Part shown: in pieces, positions 2,495 through 7,036 of the stretch
Layout: each line of letters starts with the position of its first letter
Numbering within the stretch: position 1 is the stretch's first letter
Notes under the pieces: generated by a model
What the model was told of the DNA's origin: nothing
Databases searched by the model: none
The model's input: the letters and a program-made list of their open reading frames with translations, nothing else
Virus record (IMG/VR): IMGVR_UViG_2609459834_000008
DNA length: 7,759 nucleotides
Direction: 5' to 3' (one strand)
From: a virus
Taxonomy: Duplodnaviria > Heunggongvirae > Uroviricota > Caudoviricetes
Translations under genes and position numbers: made by a program

Positions 2495-2557
2495 ATGATG
2501 AATGACGGTAAGCAACAATCTACCTTTTTGTTTCACGATTACGCGCAACACCCCTGA
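2495..2557 (+). pseudogene. sbcB: sbcB (exonuclease I) 5' remnant: 16 native codons (MMNDGKQQSTFLFHDY), then 4 foreign codons and a TGA
   Basis: ATGATGAATGACGGTAAGCAACAATCTACCTTTTTGTTTCACGATTAC matches the start of K-12 sbcB from memory. The expected continuation (ETFGTHPALD...) is absent; the sequence after 2542 is unrelated and AT-rich. The divergent dacD/sbcB arrangement is conserved up to this point. Confidence 0.75.
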
Positions 2558-2996
2558 GAACCGCCATGAACAAGGGTTTCATAATTTGTGATTTTAGTTT
2601 GGTACGCAATTTGGTACACAACACAATTTTCACTTCAGTGGGTAGTCATCAAACTCACCATAACGAGCATCGTTGATGATGTATGTGATCACCACAAATA
2701 TCACATCTGGACTAGTTCCGTCTTCATGCGCAGGTATCTGTTCATGACTACCTGTCTGCAAACCAGTAATAAGCTATTACAGTGTGATAGTGATGCATCA
2801 ACTACGATAAATGCAGAGAAATGATGCAGTGGTGGGCGGATTGGCTTGATGAAAAGGTAGGGTGATCGACCTTAACAACTATCGAATAGCACAAAGACTT
2901 GCGGGCCAGTGCAAGGCGTTGTGTGTCTCAGTTTTGTCTAATTAGTTAAGTAACTTGTCGATCTATCGATACATGAATGATAGGCTCCTCAACATC

Positions 2997-3019
2997 AATT
3001 GTTTTGCAAAAAAACAATT
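2997..3019. promoter_or_regulatory. AT-rich inverted repeat (AATTGTTTT-gcaaa-AAAACAATT) 22 bp upstream of the 335-aa ORF; possible operator
   Basis: Perfect 9-bp arms seen directly in the sequence. No function can be assigned; AT-rich palindromes also occur by chance in DNA of this composition. Confidence 0.3.
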
Positions 3020-3040
3020 AAATGAAAACAGGTAAGTTAC

Positions 3041-4141: not shown

Positions 4142-5215
4142 ATGATATTGTCATTACAGTATTTAAGAGGGATAGCGGCGATACTGGTTGTTCTTTACCA
4201 TTATCGTGGTGAGTTAAATGCATCATATGCACAAAAAGGACTTGGAGATCTTCTTTTTAGCAATGGATACATTGGTGTAGATTTATTTTTTATGGTTAGC
4301 GGATTTGTTATCATGCTATCAACAGAAAAAGATAAATCATATTTATCGTTTGCCATTAAAAGAATCTTTAGGTTATATCCAGTATATATAGTTTGCCTTA
4401 TTTTATGCACATATCTGCTATCAAAACCAATAGATTTAAATTTCTATAAGTCGTTGTTTTTTATACCATTAAACATGAACTCACAAGCACCATGGTTTGG
4501 GTATTCACTGGTATATACTGCATGGACTTTAATGTATGAGATTGTGTTTTACTTTATTTTTTCATTGTCAATGATTGTATCATGGCGATATCGTGGGTTA
4601 ATTTGCTCAGTTGTTCTTGTTGTACTACCATTTTTAATGGGCTATTATTATAATAATAGAATTTCATTAAGTGGGTACGACGCTGTAATAGCGCATACAG
4701 GTGTTTATTTTGTTGATAGTGCTATCCGATTGTTATCTTCACCTATGTTTATTGAGTTTTCAGTAGGCATATTAATTTATGAAATATACAAGAGATCACG
4801 CAACAGATTTTTTCAGTTAGTGTCAACTTGGATGGTAATAATTTCTTTGTCATTGTTTGTTCTATATTACATTACTGGTGTAAATGGAGGTCATGGAATA
4901 AACTCAAGCGGTATATTTGCAGCTTTATTGCTATTGTCTCTTACAGTTTATGAAAAAAACAATCCAATAAAACCAGTTAAATCACTAAACCTTTTAGGTG
5001 ATATTTCATACTCCCTATATCTCACCCATCCAATAATAATACAATCAATAACAACATTGTTTTTCGTTTCTAGTATATACTCTCCAAATGGTGGACTTGG
5101 AAATATTTATATAATGTTGATGATTGCGTTTGCTTTATCTTGTGTTCTATTCCATACAATAGAAAAGCCTTTTGTAAATTTAGGAAGAAAGGTTATAAAT
5201 AAAATTTGCAGATAA
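4142..5215 (+). CDS. Integral-membrane acyltransferase, family 3 (AT3; OafA/Oac-like O-acyltransferase of surface polysaccharide)
   Basis: 357-aa protein with roughly ten hydrophobic segments. The N-terminal LRGIAAILVVLYHY matches the AT3 signature with its conserved Arg and His in the first helix, and VDLFFMVSGF matches the typical AT3 motif. Size is similar to stand-alone Oac-type acetyltransferases. Very AT-rich. Likely co-transcribed with the upstream 335-aa gene (93 bp gap, no terminator seen). Confidence 0.85.
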   Translation: MILSLQYLRGIAAILVVLYHYRGELNASYAQKGLGDLLFSNGYIGVDLFFMVSGFVIMLSTEKDKSYLSFAIKRIFRLYPVYIVCLILCTYLLSKPIDLNFYKSLFFIPLNMNSQAPWFGYSLVYTAWTLMYEIVFYFIFSLSMIVSWRYRGLICSVVLVVLPFLMGYYYNNRISLSGYDAVIAHTGVYFVDSAIRLLSSPMFIEFSVGILIYEIYKRSRNRFFQLVSTWMVIISLSLFVLYYITGVNGGHGINSSGIFAALLLLSLTVYEKNNPIKPVKSLNLLGDISYSLYLTHPIIIQSITTLFFVSSIYSPNGGLGNIYIMLMIAFALSCVLFHTIEKPFVNLGRKVINKICR

Positions 5216-5218
5216 AAA

Positions 5219-5240
5219 GCGGGGTAATAACCCCGCAATT
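5219..5240. terminator. Bidirectional rho-independent terminator between the convergent AT3 and beta-helix genes
   Basis: GCGGGG-taataa-CCCCGC hairpin (5219-5236) with an A-run on the 5' side and a T-rich tract (aattttattt) on the 3' side, so it has a U-tract on either strand. It sits exactly between the stop codons at 5213-5215 (+) and 5241-5243 (-). Confidence 0.75.
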
Positions 5241-7036
5241 TTATTTAACTCTGTAATAACTGGAACCTACTCCAATGAACTCATATATGTTTGGCGATGA
5301 CAGAGTAGTTATAAGAGTTGGTCCATTATAAATTCCTAATGTTTGTCCATTAAAGTTTACAGACAGAAGATCAATTAAAACTCTATTTCGAAGTAGATTA
5401 TAGGATAGAATTGTTAAATCTGGTAGCATTAATGTCTTACCTCCAACCAATGTCCCACCAAACTTTATTATATTCCTAGAATTATCCGGCCAGGGAGATG
5501 CTGAGTTAATATCATGCAATAATAGAATCTTCCCCGAGTCACGATAATCGGATAATGAATAAAATACTCCTTTTCCTGATGTGTGTTCGTTATCATAAAC
5601 TCCTGTCGGGGCGTTTGTGAGAACAGGTTGATTAAATCTAGTACCTTCGAATCTTGCAATATCAGGTGCAGAAGTAGACATCGTTAGTGTTGGTTGTCCA
5701 TTGCCATTAAAACCAACTGCGTTATCTCCAATACTTGATCTTGAAAATTCATTTACATCAAAGAAACCAATATCAGTGAATCCACCTTCGCTCACTGATT
5801 CATGGCTGTTTCCGGTAAATGAAAAGTTAGTAAAACGAGACGAGCATTTAAAAGCCGGACCTGATTCTGTAGTGTGGTGCCTACCAAACTTAACACCAGT
5901 GAATGTAATGTTATCACCATTTACACAATCCATAACATTGCTGATGTACCCAGAACCTGTGTTCCATCCAATAGAACCGCCAACCCATGAAAAACCATCA
6001 AACTCCAGAATGTCAAATATCTTACCGCCTGTAAAAGTATAGTGTGTGCAGTTTGAGAACATACATGACTTCATTCTTCTGCCACGGAAACCATACTTAG
6101 TGCCAAACAGATGGATATTAACAAAATTCCCGCCTTCTATTCCTTGAATGCTGTCGCCACTCAAATCAGTGCCGCCTACAAATTCTTTGGTACCATCTAC
6201 TATGATGTCATTCCACAGCCCATAATGCCCCATGCCAGATCCTTCTCCGCCGCCATTTCCATCTTTGAATGAGAAAGCTCGATATGTTTGCAGAACCCAT
6301 AAGTTGCTTATAGTGGGGTTCTCTATAACATCTAAACTGATGCATGCTGCCGTGCGCGGGTAGGTGTCATCTGGTAACTGATGCGCTCTTGATGTAAATC
6401 TGACAACTTTTGTGACGTTCGATATCTCTGACGAAGGGGTTCCATTACACCCAGTAACTCCGGTTAATATACAAGTTCCATCAGAATTGCTAGTAAGTCC
6501 GGTTGCGAAAAACGACCCGGAATTAGTGCTGAATTGACAGAAGTTACTCACCGGTACACCTGCGGTGTTGTTGTCAGTTAAAGGCCATGTAATTATATTT
6601 CCACCATTAGCCTGAAATGGATTTGAAGCAAGAGTAATGGTGTTTGATGTTTTGCTTATCACATCTGTGTTTTCTGAGCCTACATATTGCGATAAAACCA
6701 AGCGGTCTAATGAATAGCAAACGTTACCAAATACAATGCCCCTTGAGTTAAGTCCAACTCTTATCTCTGGGACATTCCCCAGAGAGTTTATTACACCTTC
6801 ACCTCTTATTCCTATGGATACAGGGATTCCATCAATGGAAAATGGTATTGCAACCTCTGTGATTATGTTTACTTTTGAGTTTGCTGTAACAATCAACTCT
6901 CCGTAGCCAAGCCGTACTAACGAATAAATAGCAAGTTTAATTACTGGCGAATCATTTGTGATGCCAGGTTCCTCAATGAAATTTTTTACTTCATTGATTC
7001 GGTACCCATTAAGCAGTCCTACACAAGCCCATTTAG
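5241..7036 (-). pseudogene. 3' portion (598 codons) of a Cys-containing, Gly/Asn/Ser/Thr-rich predicted beta-helix protein (tailspike / polysaccharide depolymerase / adhesin-like), 5'-truncated by IS5
   Basis: The reading frame is open with no stop right up to the IS5 boundary at 7036/7037. The first 23 codons of the 621-aa track ORF are encoded by IS5 terminal sequence, so the native N-terminus is missing. Composition (many G, N, S, T; repeated GxxN-like segments; about 11 Cys) suggests a parallel beta-helix fold. Fold and function are inferred, not demonstrated. Confidence 0.65.
7033..7036. repeat. TTAG, candidate IS5 target site (YTAR) abutting the IS5 end
   Basis: IS5 is known to insert at YTAR tetranucleotides and duplicate them. 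TTAG sits immediately before the first IS5 base (7037). The second copy would be beyond the window. Confidence 0.6.

What the first reader, a model, noticed from the sequence alone, without database searches (positions are those of the whole stretch)
2543..7036. AT-rich three-gene insert replacing sbcB: candidate surface-polysaccharide modification or phage-moron module
Hand counts on sample lines give roughly one-third G+C inside the insert against roughly one-half in dacD (approximate). The insert carries a secreted 335-aa protein and an AT3 membrane acyltransferase in one orientation, a bidirectional terminator, and a convergent beta-helix-like protein. AT3 acyltransferases that O-acetylate O-antigen are classic lysogenic-conversion or moron genes, and beta-helix proteins are typical tailspikes or glycan depolymerases. 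The combination suggests a cell-surface glycan modification or phage-receptor cassette, possibly a prophage remnant. The 335-aa partner matches no family I recognise, so the module may be undescribed.
Basis: inference. Interest (0 to 1): 0.7.

Follow-up and report, generated by a model that had tools for sequence, protein, structure and literature searches.

The report
Prophage end: O-antigen conversion cassette
This is the decayed end of a P22-like prophage sitting at the start of the sbcB gene in E. coli: it keeps an O-antigen acetyltransferase, the receptor-binding part of a tailspike cut by IS5, and an intact, unstudied periplasmic sugar-fold protein. All of it is tied to O127/O90-type hosts, so the kind of element is ordinary and only that third protein is new.

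Summary
Bases 2544-7036 have 36.7% G+C against 47-49% in the flanking core genes. They carry a signal-peptide protein (orf335), an AT3 acyltransferase, a two-way terminator and a convergent beta-helix protein.

It is not an insert that replaced sbcB. It is the attR end of a P22-like prophage that integrates at the 5' end of sbcB, and IS5 cuts it at 7037. The beta-helix protein is a tailspike lacking its first ~192 residues.

The AT3 gene sits in the standard lysogenic-conversion slot between tailspike and prophage end. Sibling prophages carry gtrABC in that slot. The AT3 protein has all the AT3 catalytic motifs.

Orf335 and this tailspike receptor-binding domain always travel together, in P22-like and epsilon15-like prophages of E. 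coli, Salmonella and Citrobacter. All 10 complete-genome records that carry orf335 (6 strains) have, or had, the O90/O127 O-antigen cluster.

Orf335 is not an AT3-specific partner. It is a purifying-selected, galactose-mutarotase-like beta-sandwich from a large family with no Pfam model (about 1,400 clusters). That family occurs mostly as the C-terminal domain of phage tail proteins and secreted glycan-active proteins.

Verdict: a known kind of element (serotype-conversion cassette in a prophage remnant) with one uncharacterised component. Moderate interest.

The parts
2496..2543 (+). Displaced native 5' end of sbcB (first 16 codons, MMNDGKQQSTFLFHDY). It ends in the 13-bp core TTTCACGATTACG (2531-2543), which is shared with the phage-supplied sbcB start. 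This is the attR junction.
   Evidence: Sequence read. Core found by comparison with the int-side junction of the intact prophage in L014.
2544..2804 (.). Non-coding right-end DNA of a P22-like prophage that integrates at sbcB.
   Evidence: Window 458-2851 is 98.9% identical to E. coli O19:H7 730V1, where this stretch lies between dacD and the AT3/tailspike end of a complete P22-like prophage. All three frames are full of stops.
2805..2865 (+). Relic of the 3' end of integrase gene intS (last ~17 codons, ...REMMQWWADWLDEKVG*). It is a recombination scar that links the sbcB-type prophage end to a cassette otherwise found next to intS at argW.
   Evidence: Translations. Blast shows 2805-3090 is 99% identical to the intS end in L001. 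The overlap 2805-2851 is shared by both prophage types.
2866..3040 (+). Upstream region of orf335. It is conserved in the intS-type copies and holds two GATC sites (2864, 2960) and the palindromes CTATCGAATAG (2879) and TCGATCTATCGATA (2958).
   Evidence: No consensus sigma-70 promoter scored here. Any regulatory role is untested.
3041..4048 (+). orf335: a Sec-signal periplasmic protein with an all-beta galactose-mutarotase-like supersandwich fold. It belongs to an uncurated domain family.
4049..4141 (+). 93-nt spacer of 21.5% G+C between orf335 and AT3. No terminator is predicted in it. Some sibling prophages have an unrelated 480-bp non-coding spacer here.
4142..5215 (+). AT3-only membrane acyltransferase (357 aa), a putative O-antigen O-acetyltransferase.
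   Evidence: PF01757 at 2.9e-35. phrog_3333 'O-acetyltransferase' at 6e-72. Motifs R9-X10-H20, F49FMVSG54 and R74IFR77 are present (motif definitions from PMC7448272). dN/dS 0.11-0.16, with one near-identical pair at 0.38.
5219..5236 (.). Bidirectional intrinsic terminator hairpin shared by AT3 and the convergent tailspike gene.
   Evidence: 7-bp stem with 6 G-C pairs and T-rich tracts on both strands.
5241..7036 (-). 3' part of a tailspike gene: the receptor-binding beta-helix, equivalent to residues 193-789 of the full P22-type spike. The head-binding domain is missing.
7037..7759 (.). IS5-family element (ISKpn26-like), partial because it runs to the contig end. It is inserted in the tailspike gene at a TTAG target (7033-7036).

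Best explanation
The window is a whole 7.8-kb E. coli draft contig. Bases 2544-7036 are the attR-proximal end of a P22-like temperate phage that integrates at the 5' end of sbcB.

This end carries the phage's lysogenic-conversion region. It reads inward from the prophage end and converges on the tailspike gene. The layout is orf335, then an AT3-only acyltransferase, then a shared terminator, then the tailspike, which is now cut by IS5.

Likely mechanism (inferred): in the lysogen, the AT3 protein carries an acyl group, most probably acetyl from acetyl-CoA, across the inner membrane. It transfers it to the O-antigen on the periplasmic face. This changes the receptor that the co-inherited tailspike domain recognises and cleaves. 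The result would be to block superinfection and protect the host's own O-antigen from spikes released by the prophage.

The target is most probably the Fuc-Gal-GalNAc-GalNAc O-antigen of the E. coli O127/O90 group and the related Salmonella O13.

Orf335 is a separate, independently recombining gene for a periplasmic beta-sandwich protein. It belongs to a glycan-associated domain family that is common at the tips of phage tail proteins. I propose that it binds or processes the same O-antigen in the periplasm as a second conversion or exclusion function that does not depend on AT3.

Shown: identity, anatomy, junctions, fold, motifs, selection, linkage and host O-type association. Inferred: acetylation of the O-antigen, the protective role, and any activity of orf335.
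For: Prophage identity and junctions.

Conversion slot: in argW prophages the order is intS-orf335-AT3-<tailspike. In epsilon15-like prophages of E2348/69 and Salmonella the order is lysis genes-orf335-AT3-<tailspike. gtrA-gtrB-gtrC occupies the AT3 position in E. coli CM2010-0578/1 and 2017.01.04CC and in Citrobacter.

AT3: Pfam and PHROG matches and all conserved motifs.

Tailspike: 90-92% identity of the receptor-binding domain across P22-type, epsilon15-type and Citrobacter spikes that have different N-termini. Beta-helix fold.

O-type link: O90/O127 wzx-wzy occurs in 11 of 5426 complete genomes. Eight of the 10 orf335 carrier records are among them. The other two records are one strain whose O cluster was deleted by IS1 but which keeps galF, galE and gne proteins identical to those of E2348/69. 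Fisher p is about 1e-14 after collapsing to strains. The 77%-identical spike cluster comes from Salmonella serovars Worthington, Cubana, Kedougou, Idikan and Vridi. Worthington and Cubana are listed as O13 in PMC8550085; the other three are O13 from my own knowledge of the Kauffmann-White scheme. O13 is related to O127 (Perepelov 2010, as cited in PMC7685785).

Selection: every copy of both genes compared is intact, and intact copies persist in otherwise degraded remnants; dN/dS is 0.11-0.26 apart from one near-identical AT3 pair at 0.38.

Precedent for the protective logic: the BTP1 GtrC acetyltransferase (PMC4413052).
Against: There is no biochemical evidence for any of the three proteins.

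The O127 unit already has acetyl groups on fucose that are attributed to the cluster-encoded WbiO (PMC7685785). So the site, or even the need, for a second acetylation is unknown.

The closest AT3 proteins in sequenced phages are only about 33% identical and are annotated vaguely. The acyl donor and acceptor therefore cannot be read from homology.

The window's own host O type is not in the window. It is inferred from 99.8-99.9% identity of the dacD flank to two O90/O127 strains.

The carrier strains are few (6 after collapsing duplicates), so shared ancestry could inflate the O-type association.

The tailspike here is disrupted, so the 'protect against own spike' role cannot be current in this strain.
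Confidence: 0.8

Rival explanations
1. Orf335 is the missing periplasmic transferase or acceptor-presenting partner of the AT3 protein. It would be functionally equivalent to the fused SGNH domain of OafA/OafB, so the two genes would form one two-component acetyltransferase.
For: The genes are adjacent and co-oriented with a 93-nt spacer and no predicted terminator. They are co-inherited in E. coli and Salmonella prophages of two different types. The AT3 field openly asks whether AT3-only enzymes need an unidentified partner (PMC9558356). One phage tail protein combines this domain with a C-terminal GDSL/SGNH domain.
Against: The same orf335 precedes gtrABC with no AT3 in three E. coli strains (four complete-genome records) and in Citrobacter. 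The orf335-AT3 junction varies, with a 93-nt spacer in some copies and an unrelated 480-bp spacer in others. The fold is a mutarotase-like sandwich, not SGNH. Stand-alone homologues in Bacillota are not next to AT3 genes. Many AT3-only enzymes are thought to work alone (PMC9558356).
Confidence: 0.15
2. Orf335 is an enzyme that by itself remodels the O-antigen in the periplasm, for example as a glycanase, lyase or esterase. That would be a third, new type of lysogenic conversion alongside acetylation and glucosylation.
For: Polar residues are strictly conserved across 120 very divergent family members: D99, K304 and Y306 are invariant, and H126, Q221, E189, N175 and T176 are at least 90% conserved. 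The fold is shared with catalytic supersandwich enzymes: GH174 fucanase, PL26, aldose 1-epimerases and OpgD/OpgG. Bacteroidota homologues sit in glycan-degradation loci with GH89, GH20, DUF4855 and DUF4434, and the domain is fused to DUF4855 in other proteins.
Against: Sequence identity to any enzyme of this fold is 5-10%, and there is no sequence-level match. The fold is just as often a non-catalytic accessory or binding domain, as in beta-galactosidase domain 5 and YidC P1. In multidomain proteins it is usually the C-terminal domain, which is where binding heads of tail fibres and CBMs normally sit. I could not check whether the conserved residues cluster in space.
Confidence: 0.3
3. Orf335 is only a non-catalytic glycan-binding (lectin-like) protein, or has no role in the lysogen and is a hitch-hiking relic of a tail-fibre tip that recombination keeps next to the tailspike.
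For: Family members are mostly C-terminal domains of phage tail proteins. Orf335 is always linked to one particular tailspike receptor-binding domain.
Against: As a relic: it has acquired a signal peptide and its own start. It is intact in every copy compared, including in prophage remnants where the spike and gtrB are destroyed. dN/dS is 0.11-0.26 while dS reaches 0.87. As a pure lectin: not excluded. This overlaps with the best explanation.
Confidence: 0.3
4. The segment is a non-phage genomic island or an IS-mediated composite that replaced sbcB.
For: IS1 and IS5 flank the contig, and sbcB beyond codon 16 is absent from the window.
Against: The left junction is the same as that of a complete P22-like prophage whose other end abuts an intact sbcB. 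The IS5 is a simple insertion with a TTAG target inside the tailspike gene. IS1 lies outside the element.
Confidence: 0.03

Closest known systems
Oac/OacB serotype-conversion genes of Shigella phages Sf6 and Sf101 (AT3-only O-antigen acetyltransferases in P22-like phages)
   Same: An AT3-only membrane acyltransferase encoded between the tailspike gene and the int/att end of a P22-like prophage. It is low in G+C and has the R/K-X10-H, FFxxSG and RxxR motifs (PMC7448272, PMC8787464).
   Different: The sequence is very distant: Sf6 Oac is not among tblastn hits at E<=1e-10, and the best phage relatives are about 33% identical. The inferred target is the O127/O90/O13-type O-antigen, not the S. flexneri rhamnose backbone. 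The cassette has an extra gene, orf335, which Sf6 and Sf101 lack.
gtrABC glucosylation cassettes of P22 / CPS-53 (KplE1)
   Same: They occupy exactly the same slot. Sibling prophages with the same intS, the same orf335 and the same tailspike domain carry gtrA-gtrB-gtrC where this window has AT3.
   Different: The chemistry differs: glucosylation through Und-P-glucose rather than acyl transfer.
GtrC(BTP1) of Salmonella prophage BTP1
   Same: A prophage acyltransferase next to the tailspike. It protects the lysogen's O-antigen from the prophage's own endoglycosidase spike and blocks superinfection (PMC4413052). This is the mechanism I infer here.
   Different: As I recall, it belongs to the OafB-like AT3 proteins with a fused periplasmic domain; I did not check this here. 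The protein in this window is AT3-only. The BTP1 function was shown by experiment, whereas here it is inferred.
Epsilon15-type conversion region (genes after tailspike gp20) and, from my own knowledge, the O157 O-acetyltransferase of epsilon15-like phage phiV10
   Same: In E2348/69 and Salmonella the orf335-AT3-spike block sits in a prophage whose holin/endolysin genes lie next to it and whose 895-aa spike has a non-P22 N-terminus, a layout I take to be epsilon15-like.
   Different: There are no polymerase or polymerase-inhibitor genes. phiV10 and other sequenced phages lack orf335.
Galactose-mutarotase-like supersandwich proteins (GH174 endo-1,3-fucanase, aldose 1-epimerase, PL26, OpgD/OpgG, beta-galactosidase domain 5, YidC P1)
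   Different: Identity is 5-10%, and no sequence or profile match to any of them or to any Pfam family was found. The conserved residues of orf335 (D99, H126, Q221, K304, Y306) were not compared with the known catalytic residues of those families, and nothing suggests they correspond. Resemblance in fold says nothing about activity.
Phage Kapi1 (argW, P22-like, E. coli MP1)
   Same: A P22-like argW prophage that changes its host's O-antigen through genes that were not identified. The candidates examined included a hypothetical gene between spike and integrase (PMC8787464).
   Different: Kapi1 has no orf335 homologue: it is in the phage collection searched and did not hit. Its conversion gene remains unknown.

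Membership tests
AT3 (acyltransferase-3, PF01757) carbohydrate O-acyltransferases | Match to the PF01757 profile above the gathering score over the whole domain | tested here: met
   122.3 bits against a cut-off of 31, covering residues 3-337 and profile positions 2-325 of 326. phrog_3333 'O-acetyltransferase' at 6.4e-72.
AT3 (acyltransferase-3, PF01757) carbohydrate O-acyltransferases | R/K-X10-H motif in TMH1, FFxISG-type motif in TMH2 and RxxR motif (as defined in PMC7448272) | tested here: met
   R9-X10-H20, F49-F-M-V-S-G54 and R74-I-F-R77 are present (definitions).
AT3 (acyltransferase-3, PF01757) carbohydrate O-acyltransferases | AT3-only architecture: about 10 TM helices and no fused SGNH domain | tested here: met
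   The protein is 357 aa and PF01757 spans nearly all of it. No second domain was found. A crude hydropathy scan shows multiple TM-like segments but does not resolve the exact helix count.
AT3 (acyltransferase-3, PF01757) carbohydrate O-acyltransferases | Demonstrated acylation of a defined glycan (here, the O-antigen) | not testable with these tools
   Needs LPS chemistry on isogenic strains.
Lysogenic (serotype) conversion module of P22-like / epsilon15-like prophages | Located between the tailspike gene and the prophage end (att/int), convergent with the tailspike | tested here: met
   The window order is attR junction, int relic, orf335, AT3, terminator, then the tailspike on the opposite strand. 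The same order is seen in L001, L003, L066, L002 and L007.
Lysogenic (serotype) conversion module of P22-like / epsilon15-like prophages | The slot is interchangeable with other O-antigen modification cassettes | tested here: met
   gtrA-gtrB-gtrC replaces AT3 between the same orf335 and the same spike.
Lysogenic (serotype) conversion module of P22-like / epsilon15-like prophages | Association with one O-antigen type, matching the specificity of the linked tailspike | tested here: met
   All 10 carrier records among 5426 complete E. coli genomes have or had the O90/O127 cluster. The related spike cluster comes from Salmonella O13 serovars. The number of independent strains is small.
Lysogenic (serotype) conversion module of P22-like / epsilon15-like prophages | Changes serotype or phage sensitivity of the lysogen | not testable with these tools
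   Requires experiment.
P22-type tailspike | N-terminal head-binding domain (PF09008 / PF18668) | tested here: not met
   Absent from the window copy. Homology starts at residue 193 of the full-length protein and IS5 lies upstream. Full-length homologues do have it. The window copy is therefore a fragment, not a functional spike.
P22-type tailspike | Right-handed parallel beta-helix receptor-binding / depolymerase domain | tested here: met
Galactose mutarotase / aldose 1-epimerase superfamily (for orf335) | Supersandwich fold | tested here: met
Galactose mutarotase / aldose 1-epimerase superfamily (for orf335) | Sequence-profile membership (Pfam aldose-epimerase family or any curated family; PDB sequence relatives) | tested here: not met
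   No Pfam, PHROG, NCBIfam or PADLOC family matched. Scanning all 23 members of the family alignment against Pfam gave only scattered chance hits. No PDB sequence matched even at E<=10 with the family profile.
Galactose mutarotase / aldose 1-epimerase superfamily (for orf335) | Catalytic residues of a known enzyme of the fold, superposed in 3D | not tested
SGNH/GDSL periplasmic partner of AT3 (OafA/OafB/OatA type) | SGNH fold with Ser-His-Asp triad, physically or genetically coupled to AT3 | tested here: not met
   Orf335 has a different fold and no GDSL profile match. It occurs without AT3.

The most novel reading that the evidence does not exclude
Orf335 may found a new family of glycan-active periplasmic or phage-tail domains, with a mutarotase-like fold and a conserved D/H/Q/K/Y constellation. 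As a prophage gene it may itself cut or remodel the O127/O90/O13-type O-antigen, which contains the mucin-like Fuc(a1-2)Gal(b1-3)GalNAc motif. That would be a third mode of lysogenic conversion, distinct from acetylation and glucosylation. The roughly 1,400 related clusters in phage tail tips and in Bacteroidota/Bacillota glycan loci (with DUF4855, GH89 and GH20) would then be an unrecognised CAZyme or CBM family.
Probability: 0.3. Interest if true: 0.7.

Novelty: new variant of a known kind. Interest (0 to 1): 0.45.

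Why it matters
Serotype-converting prophage cassettes shape O-antigen diversity, phage host range and immune recognition in enteric pathogens. E2348/69, the prototype EPEC strain, carries this one.

The AT3 and tailspike parts are new members of well-understood families. They give a concrete, testable candidate for phage-driven modification of the O127/O90 antigen and the Salmonella O13 antigen.

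The real gain is orf335. It is a conserved, selected, secreted protein that always accompanies one tailspike specificity, whichever modification enzyme sits beside it. It opens onto a large uncurated domain family found in phage receptor-binding proteins and glycan-utilisation loci. Working out what it does would annotate more than a thousand protein clusters. It might also add a new function to the lysogenic-conversion repertoire.

Tried and rejected
- Orf335 as an SGNH-like obligate AT3 partner: rejected. It pairs with gtrABC, the spacer varies, the fold is different, and distant homologues are not linked to AT3.
- Anti-phage defence system: no PADLOC match for any of the three proteins.
- Structured RNA in the window: no Rfam family at gathering score.
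- sbcB deletion or IS composite: rejected by the intact reference prophage and the 13-bp core.
- A sequenced phage carrying the module: none in 50,697 phage records. Only the int end matches at DNA level. Orf335 finds only internal domains of two Pseudomonas phage tail proteins.
- Sequence relatives with solved structures: none for orf335 or the spike fragment.
- GH174 membership: fold similarity only, at 5-7% identity. Three catalytically important GH174 residues are tabulated (D119, E120, E218 of Fun174A, in the review PMC11943901) but could not be aligned.
- The afdb50 fold library was unavailable.
- The search for related loci with the 23-sequence alignment failed for lack of a conserved stretch. 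It worked with 8 sequences.
- A literature search for mutarotase-like domains in phage receptor-binding proteins found nothing.
- The 78-aa ORF at 2588-2824 has no family match and lies in non-coding prophage-end DNA, so I do not treat it as a gene.
- The 480-bp spacer of sibling loci has no ORF and no match elsewhere.

Full report
**What the window is.** The 7,759-base window is an entire contig of an E. coli draft genome. The exact orf335 protein is on record once, on a contig of 7,759 bases (accession KDW03590.1). From left to right it holds:
- part of IS1 (1-457);
- sbmC (528-1001, minus strand) and dacD (1120-2292, minus strand);
- the dacD-sbcB intergenic region and the first 16 codons of sbcB (2496-2543);
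- 4.5 kb of low-GC DNA (2544-7036);
- part of an IS5-family element that runs to the contig end (7037-7759).

**Check of the observation.** The composition claim is correct. The segment 2544-7036 is 36.7% G+C against 47.2% for the core part, 458-2543 (chi-square p about 1e-15). dacD is 49.4%, orf335 37.1%, AT3 30.6% and the spike fragment 39.7%, and third-codon-position G+C falls to 24-32%.

Orf335 has a typical Sec signal (MKK, a hydrophobic stretch at 4-22, then ANA/DD), and residues 1-26 are the only disordered part of its model. The second ORF is a full-length AT3 domain (PF01757, 122 bits against a cut-off of 31). The 18-base hairpin at 5219-5236 scores as an intrinsic terminator on both strands.

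**It is one end of a prophage, not a replacement of sbcB.** Window 458-2851 is 98.9% identical to E. coli O19:H7 strain 730V1. In that strain the same junction is the right end of a complete 38-kb P22-like prophage lying between dacD and an intact sbcB. Reading from sbcB, the prophage runs from integrase through the early, lysis, head and ejection genes to the tailspike, then a convergent (different) AT3 gene, then dacD.

The phage supplies a slightly different 5' end to sbcB at its integrase side and leaves the native 5' end at the dacD side. The two copies share an exact 13-bp core, TTTCACGATTACG, at window 2531-2543. The window therefore shows attR. Whether sbcB is intact elsewhere in this genome cannot be told from the contig.

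At the other boundary, the IS5 inverted repeat GGAAGGTGCG starts at 7037, next to a TTAG target. So the 621-aa ORF takes its first 24 codons from IS5. Phage homology covers residues 25-621. These equal residues 193-789 of the P22-type spike of strain S1 and 299-895 of the spike of E2348/69, at 92% identity each. The head-binding domain is missing, whereas full-length homologues carry PF09008/PF18668.

The window still holds the last ~17 codons of intS (2805-2865). The 47 bases at 2805-2851 are common to both the sbcB-type and the argW-type ends. This looks like the scar of a recombination that moved the cassette between phages with different integration modules.

In E2348/69 and in Salmonella the same orf335-AT3-spike block lies next to the lysis genes of a prophage I take to be epsilon15-like, whose spike has a different N-terminus. 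From residue ~120/226 onward the two spike types are 95% identical. The closest orf335 (96%) sits at argW in another degraded remnant, where orf335 and AT3 are intact but the spike is reduced to 230 residues by IS elements. No sequenced phage in the 50,697-record collection carries the block.

**The AT3 protein.** It is 357 aa, AT3-only, and has the three sequence signatures shared by characterised AT3 carbohydrate acetyltransferases: R9-X10-H20, FFMVSG (49-54) and RIFR (74-77) (definitions in PMC7448272). It matches the PHROG annotated as O-acetyltransferase. It is only about 33% identical to its nearest relatives in sequenced phages. dN/dS among copies is 0.11-0.16, with one near-identical pair at 0.38.

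Its position is the canonical lysogenic-conversion slot. In E. coli CM2010-0578/1 and 2017.01.04CC and in Citrobacter freundii, the same flanking genes enclose gtrA-gtrB-gtrC instead of AT3.

**Host O-antigen specificity.** This is the strongest new result. Orf335 occurs in only 10 of the complete-genome records. The O90/O127 wzx-acetyltransferase-wzy segment of E2348/69 occurs in only 11 of 5,426 complete genomes. Eight of the ten orf335 records are among those eleven.

The other two records are one strain, 2017.01.04CC. There IS1 has deleted the O cluster between galE and gnd, yet the remaining gne, galF and galE products have the same protein accessions as in E2348/69. After collapsing duplicate records to strains, Fisher's exact p is about 1e-14. 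The strains are few, so shared ancestry may inflate this figure.

The window's dacD flank, about 20 kb from the O cluster in related genomes, is 99.8-99.9% identical to two O90/O127 strains, 23AR0998 and EcPF16. Its host is therefore probably of this O type too; that is an inference.

A spike cluster 77% identical to the window's comes from Salmonella serovars Worthington, Cubana, Kedougou, Idikan and Vridi. Worthington and Cubana are listed as O13 serovars in PMC8550085. I know the other three to be O13 from the Kauffmann-White scheme. The O13 antigen is described as related to O127 (Perepelov et al. 2010, cited in PMC7685785). The O127 unit is ->2)-L-Fuc-(a1->2)-D-Gal-(b1->3)-D-GalNAc-(a1->3)-D-GalNAc-(a1->.

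**Orf335.** It matches nothing in Pfam, PHROGs, NCBIfam, PADLOC or the PDB sequence set, even when the family profile is used. Close relatives (78-96%) occur in E. coli, Salmonella and Citrobacter. The copies compared are all intact, with dN/dS 0.11-0.26 while dS reaches 0.87.

An exhaustive profile search finds 1,391 representative clusters. Many are the C-terminal ~300 residues of proteins 500-1,250 aa long. N-terminal partners include BppU_N, tail-fibre and virion-protein PHROGs, DUF4855, F5/8 type C, Ig domains and a dockerin. In Pseudomonas phage DDSR119 the domain sits inside a 1,182-aa tail protein that ends in a GDSL hydrolase. BFVD structure matches are again large tail proteins.

Across 120 divergent members, D99, P103, G123, G124, K304, Y306 and G327 are invariant. 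Y47, T122, H126, T137, N175, T176, E189, Y218, Q221 and others are at least 90% conserved. That is compatible with an active site or with a conserved ligand site. I could not test whether these residues cluster in space.

Genomic contexts of stand-alone homologues vary:
- Bacillota: no neighbouring AT3.
- A Draconibacterium: a locus with two DUF4855 proteins, DUF4434, a GH89 alpha-N-acetylglucosaminidase, a GH20 hexosaminidase and a BT_3987-like protein.
- A Prevotella: a polysaccharide biosynthesis cluster.

The family is therefore glycan-associated.

**How it most likely works.** Shown: the anatomy, the conversion slot, the AT3 signatures, the linkage of orf335 to one spike specificity, the O90/O127 host association, and purifying selection. 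The rest is inferred.

I infer that the AT3 protein O-acylates the O127/O90/O13-type O-antigen on the periplasmic face. This would alter the receptor recognised by the linked spike, giving superinfection exclusion and protection from the prophage's own spike. That mechanism was demonstrated for GtrC of BTP1 (PMC4413052) and is the general logic of Sf6, Sf101 and P22 conversion (PMC8787464).

Orf335 is independent of AT3, because it also pairs with gtrABC and its junction with AT3 varies. It tracks the spike specificity, so I propose that it binds or processes the same O-antigen in the periplasm. Whether it is a lectin or an enzyme is open.

A caveat on the AT3 target: the review attributes the fucose acetylation of O127/O90 to the cluster gene wbiO. 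What the prophage AT3 adds is therefore unknown. The review mentions two acetyl modifications on L-Fuc and names only one transferase, which is a lead and not evidence.

**Novelty and verdict.** A serotype-conversion cassette in a decayed P22-like prophage is a known kind of element. The AT3 and the spike are new members of known families. The variant features are:
- the extra conserved periplasmic protein, which belongs to a large uncurated family;
- the movement of one [orf335 - modification gene(s) - spike receptor domain] block between P22-like and epsilon15-like phages and among at least four insertion loci (argW, sbcB, a thrS-adjacent locus in Citrobacter, and a yfgI-adjacent locus between ppx and the lysis genes in E2348/69 and Salmonella);
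- the tight association with one O-antigen chemotype.

The structural framing ('insert replacing sbcB', '335-aa partner of AT3') is not.

Noticed in passing
window 2496-2543; L014 7568-9173: The P22-like phage that integrates at sbcB rewrites the first codons of sbcB. The lysogen's sbcB is 1425 nt, against 1428 nt in a non-lysogen, and its 5' end is supplied by the phage. Lysogeny therefore slightly changes the N-terminus of exonuclease I, and probably its promoter context.
   Followed up: partly
window 2805-2865: A 17-codon relic of the intS 3' end lies in a prophage end that has no integrase on this side. The same relic is present in the intact O19:H7 prophage. It appears to mark an old exchange between argW-type and sbcB-type P22-like phages.
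   Followed up: partly
window 2864-2985: Upstream of orf335 there are two GATC sites (2864, 2960) and the palindromes CTATCGAATAG and TCGATCTATCGATA, followed by ATGATAG. The gtrA upstream region of a sibling locus (L013 about 5390-5440) has a similar CTATCGATCGATG...GATGATAG pattern. This is reminiscent of the Dam/OxyR phase-variation regions of gtr operons, as I recall them, but I did not test it.
   Followed up: no
L017 (NZ_AP021891.1 1746020-1749413) and L018: In strain 2017.01.04CC, IS1 has deleted the O-antigen cluster between galE and gnd, IS3 has split gtrB, and the spike is gone. Orf335 is nevertheless still intact next to intS.
   Followed up: partly
L003 7245-7725; L001 8972-9452: Some argW copies have an unrelated 480-bp AT-rich non-coding spacer between orf335 and AT3, where the window has 93 nt. 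It has no ORF and no match in the other loci.
   Followed up: partly
L031 246-10773 (Draconibacterium MAG); also L028, L035: Stand-alone orf335-family genes in Prolixibacteraceae lie in a conserved gene cluster. In L031 the neighbours were scanned and are DUF4855 (two copies), DUF4434, a GFO/IDH/MocA oxidoreductase, GH89, GH20 and a BT_3987-like protein. In L028 and L035 the similarity of the neighbouring ORFs was judged only from their N-terminal sequences. DUF4855 is also fused to the domain in other proteins (P0045, P0048). This looks like an uncharacterised glycan-degradation system aimed at HexNAc-containing glycans.
   Followed up: partly
L005 2513-6061 (Pseudomonas phage DDSR119 gp23): A 1,182-aa tail protein downstream of the TipJ-like genes combines the orf335-type domain (about residues 497-689) with a C-terminal GDSL/SGNH esterase domain (1010-1171).
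   Followed up: partly
window 1-457 and 7037-7759: Both contig ends are IS elements. IS1 lies on the far side of sbmC from dacD, where yeeA lies in other strains, and an ISKpn26-like IS5 lies in the tailspike. The assembly probably broke at these repeats. ORFs at 7033-7749 on the minus strand lie inside the IS5 sequence and were not examined further.
   Followed up: partly
L014 45912-47006: The otherwise matching sbcB prophage of O19:H7 730V1 carries a different AT3 gene (1095 nt, with only a 77-nt weak DNA match to the window's) and a different spike in the same slot. It has no orf335. This illustrates cassette swapping with host O type.
   Followed up: no
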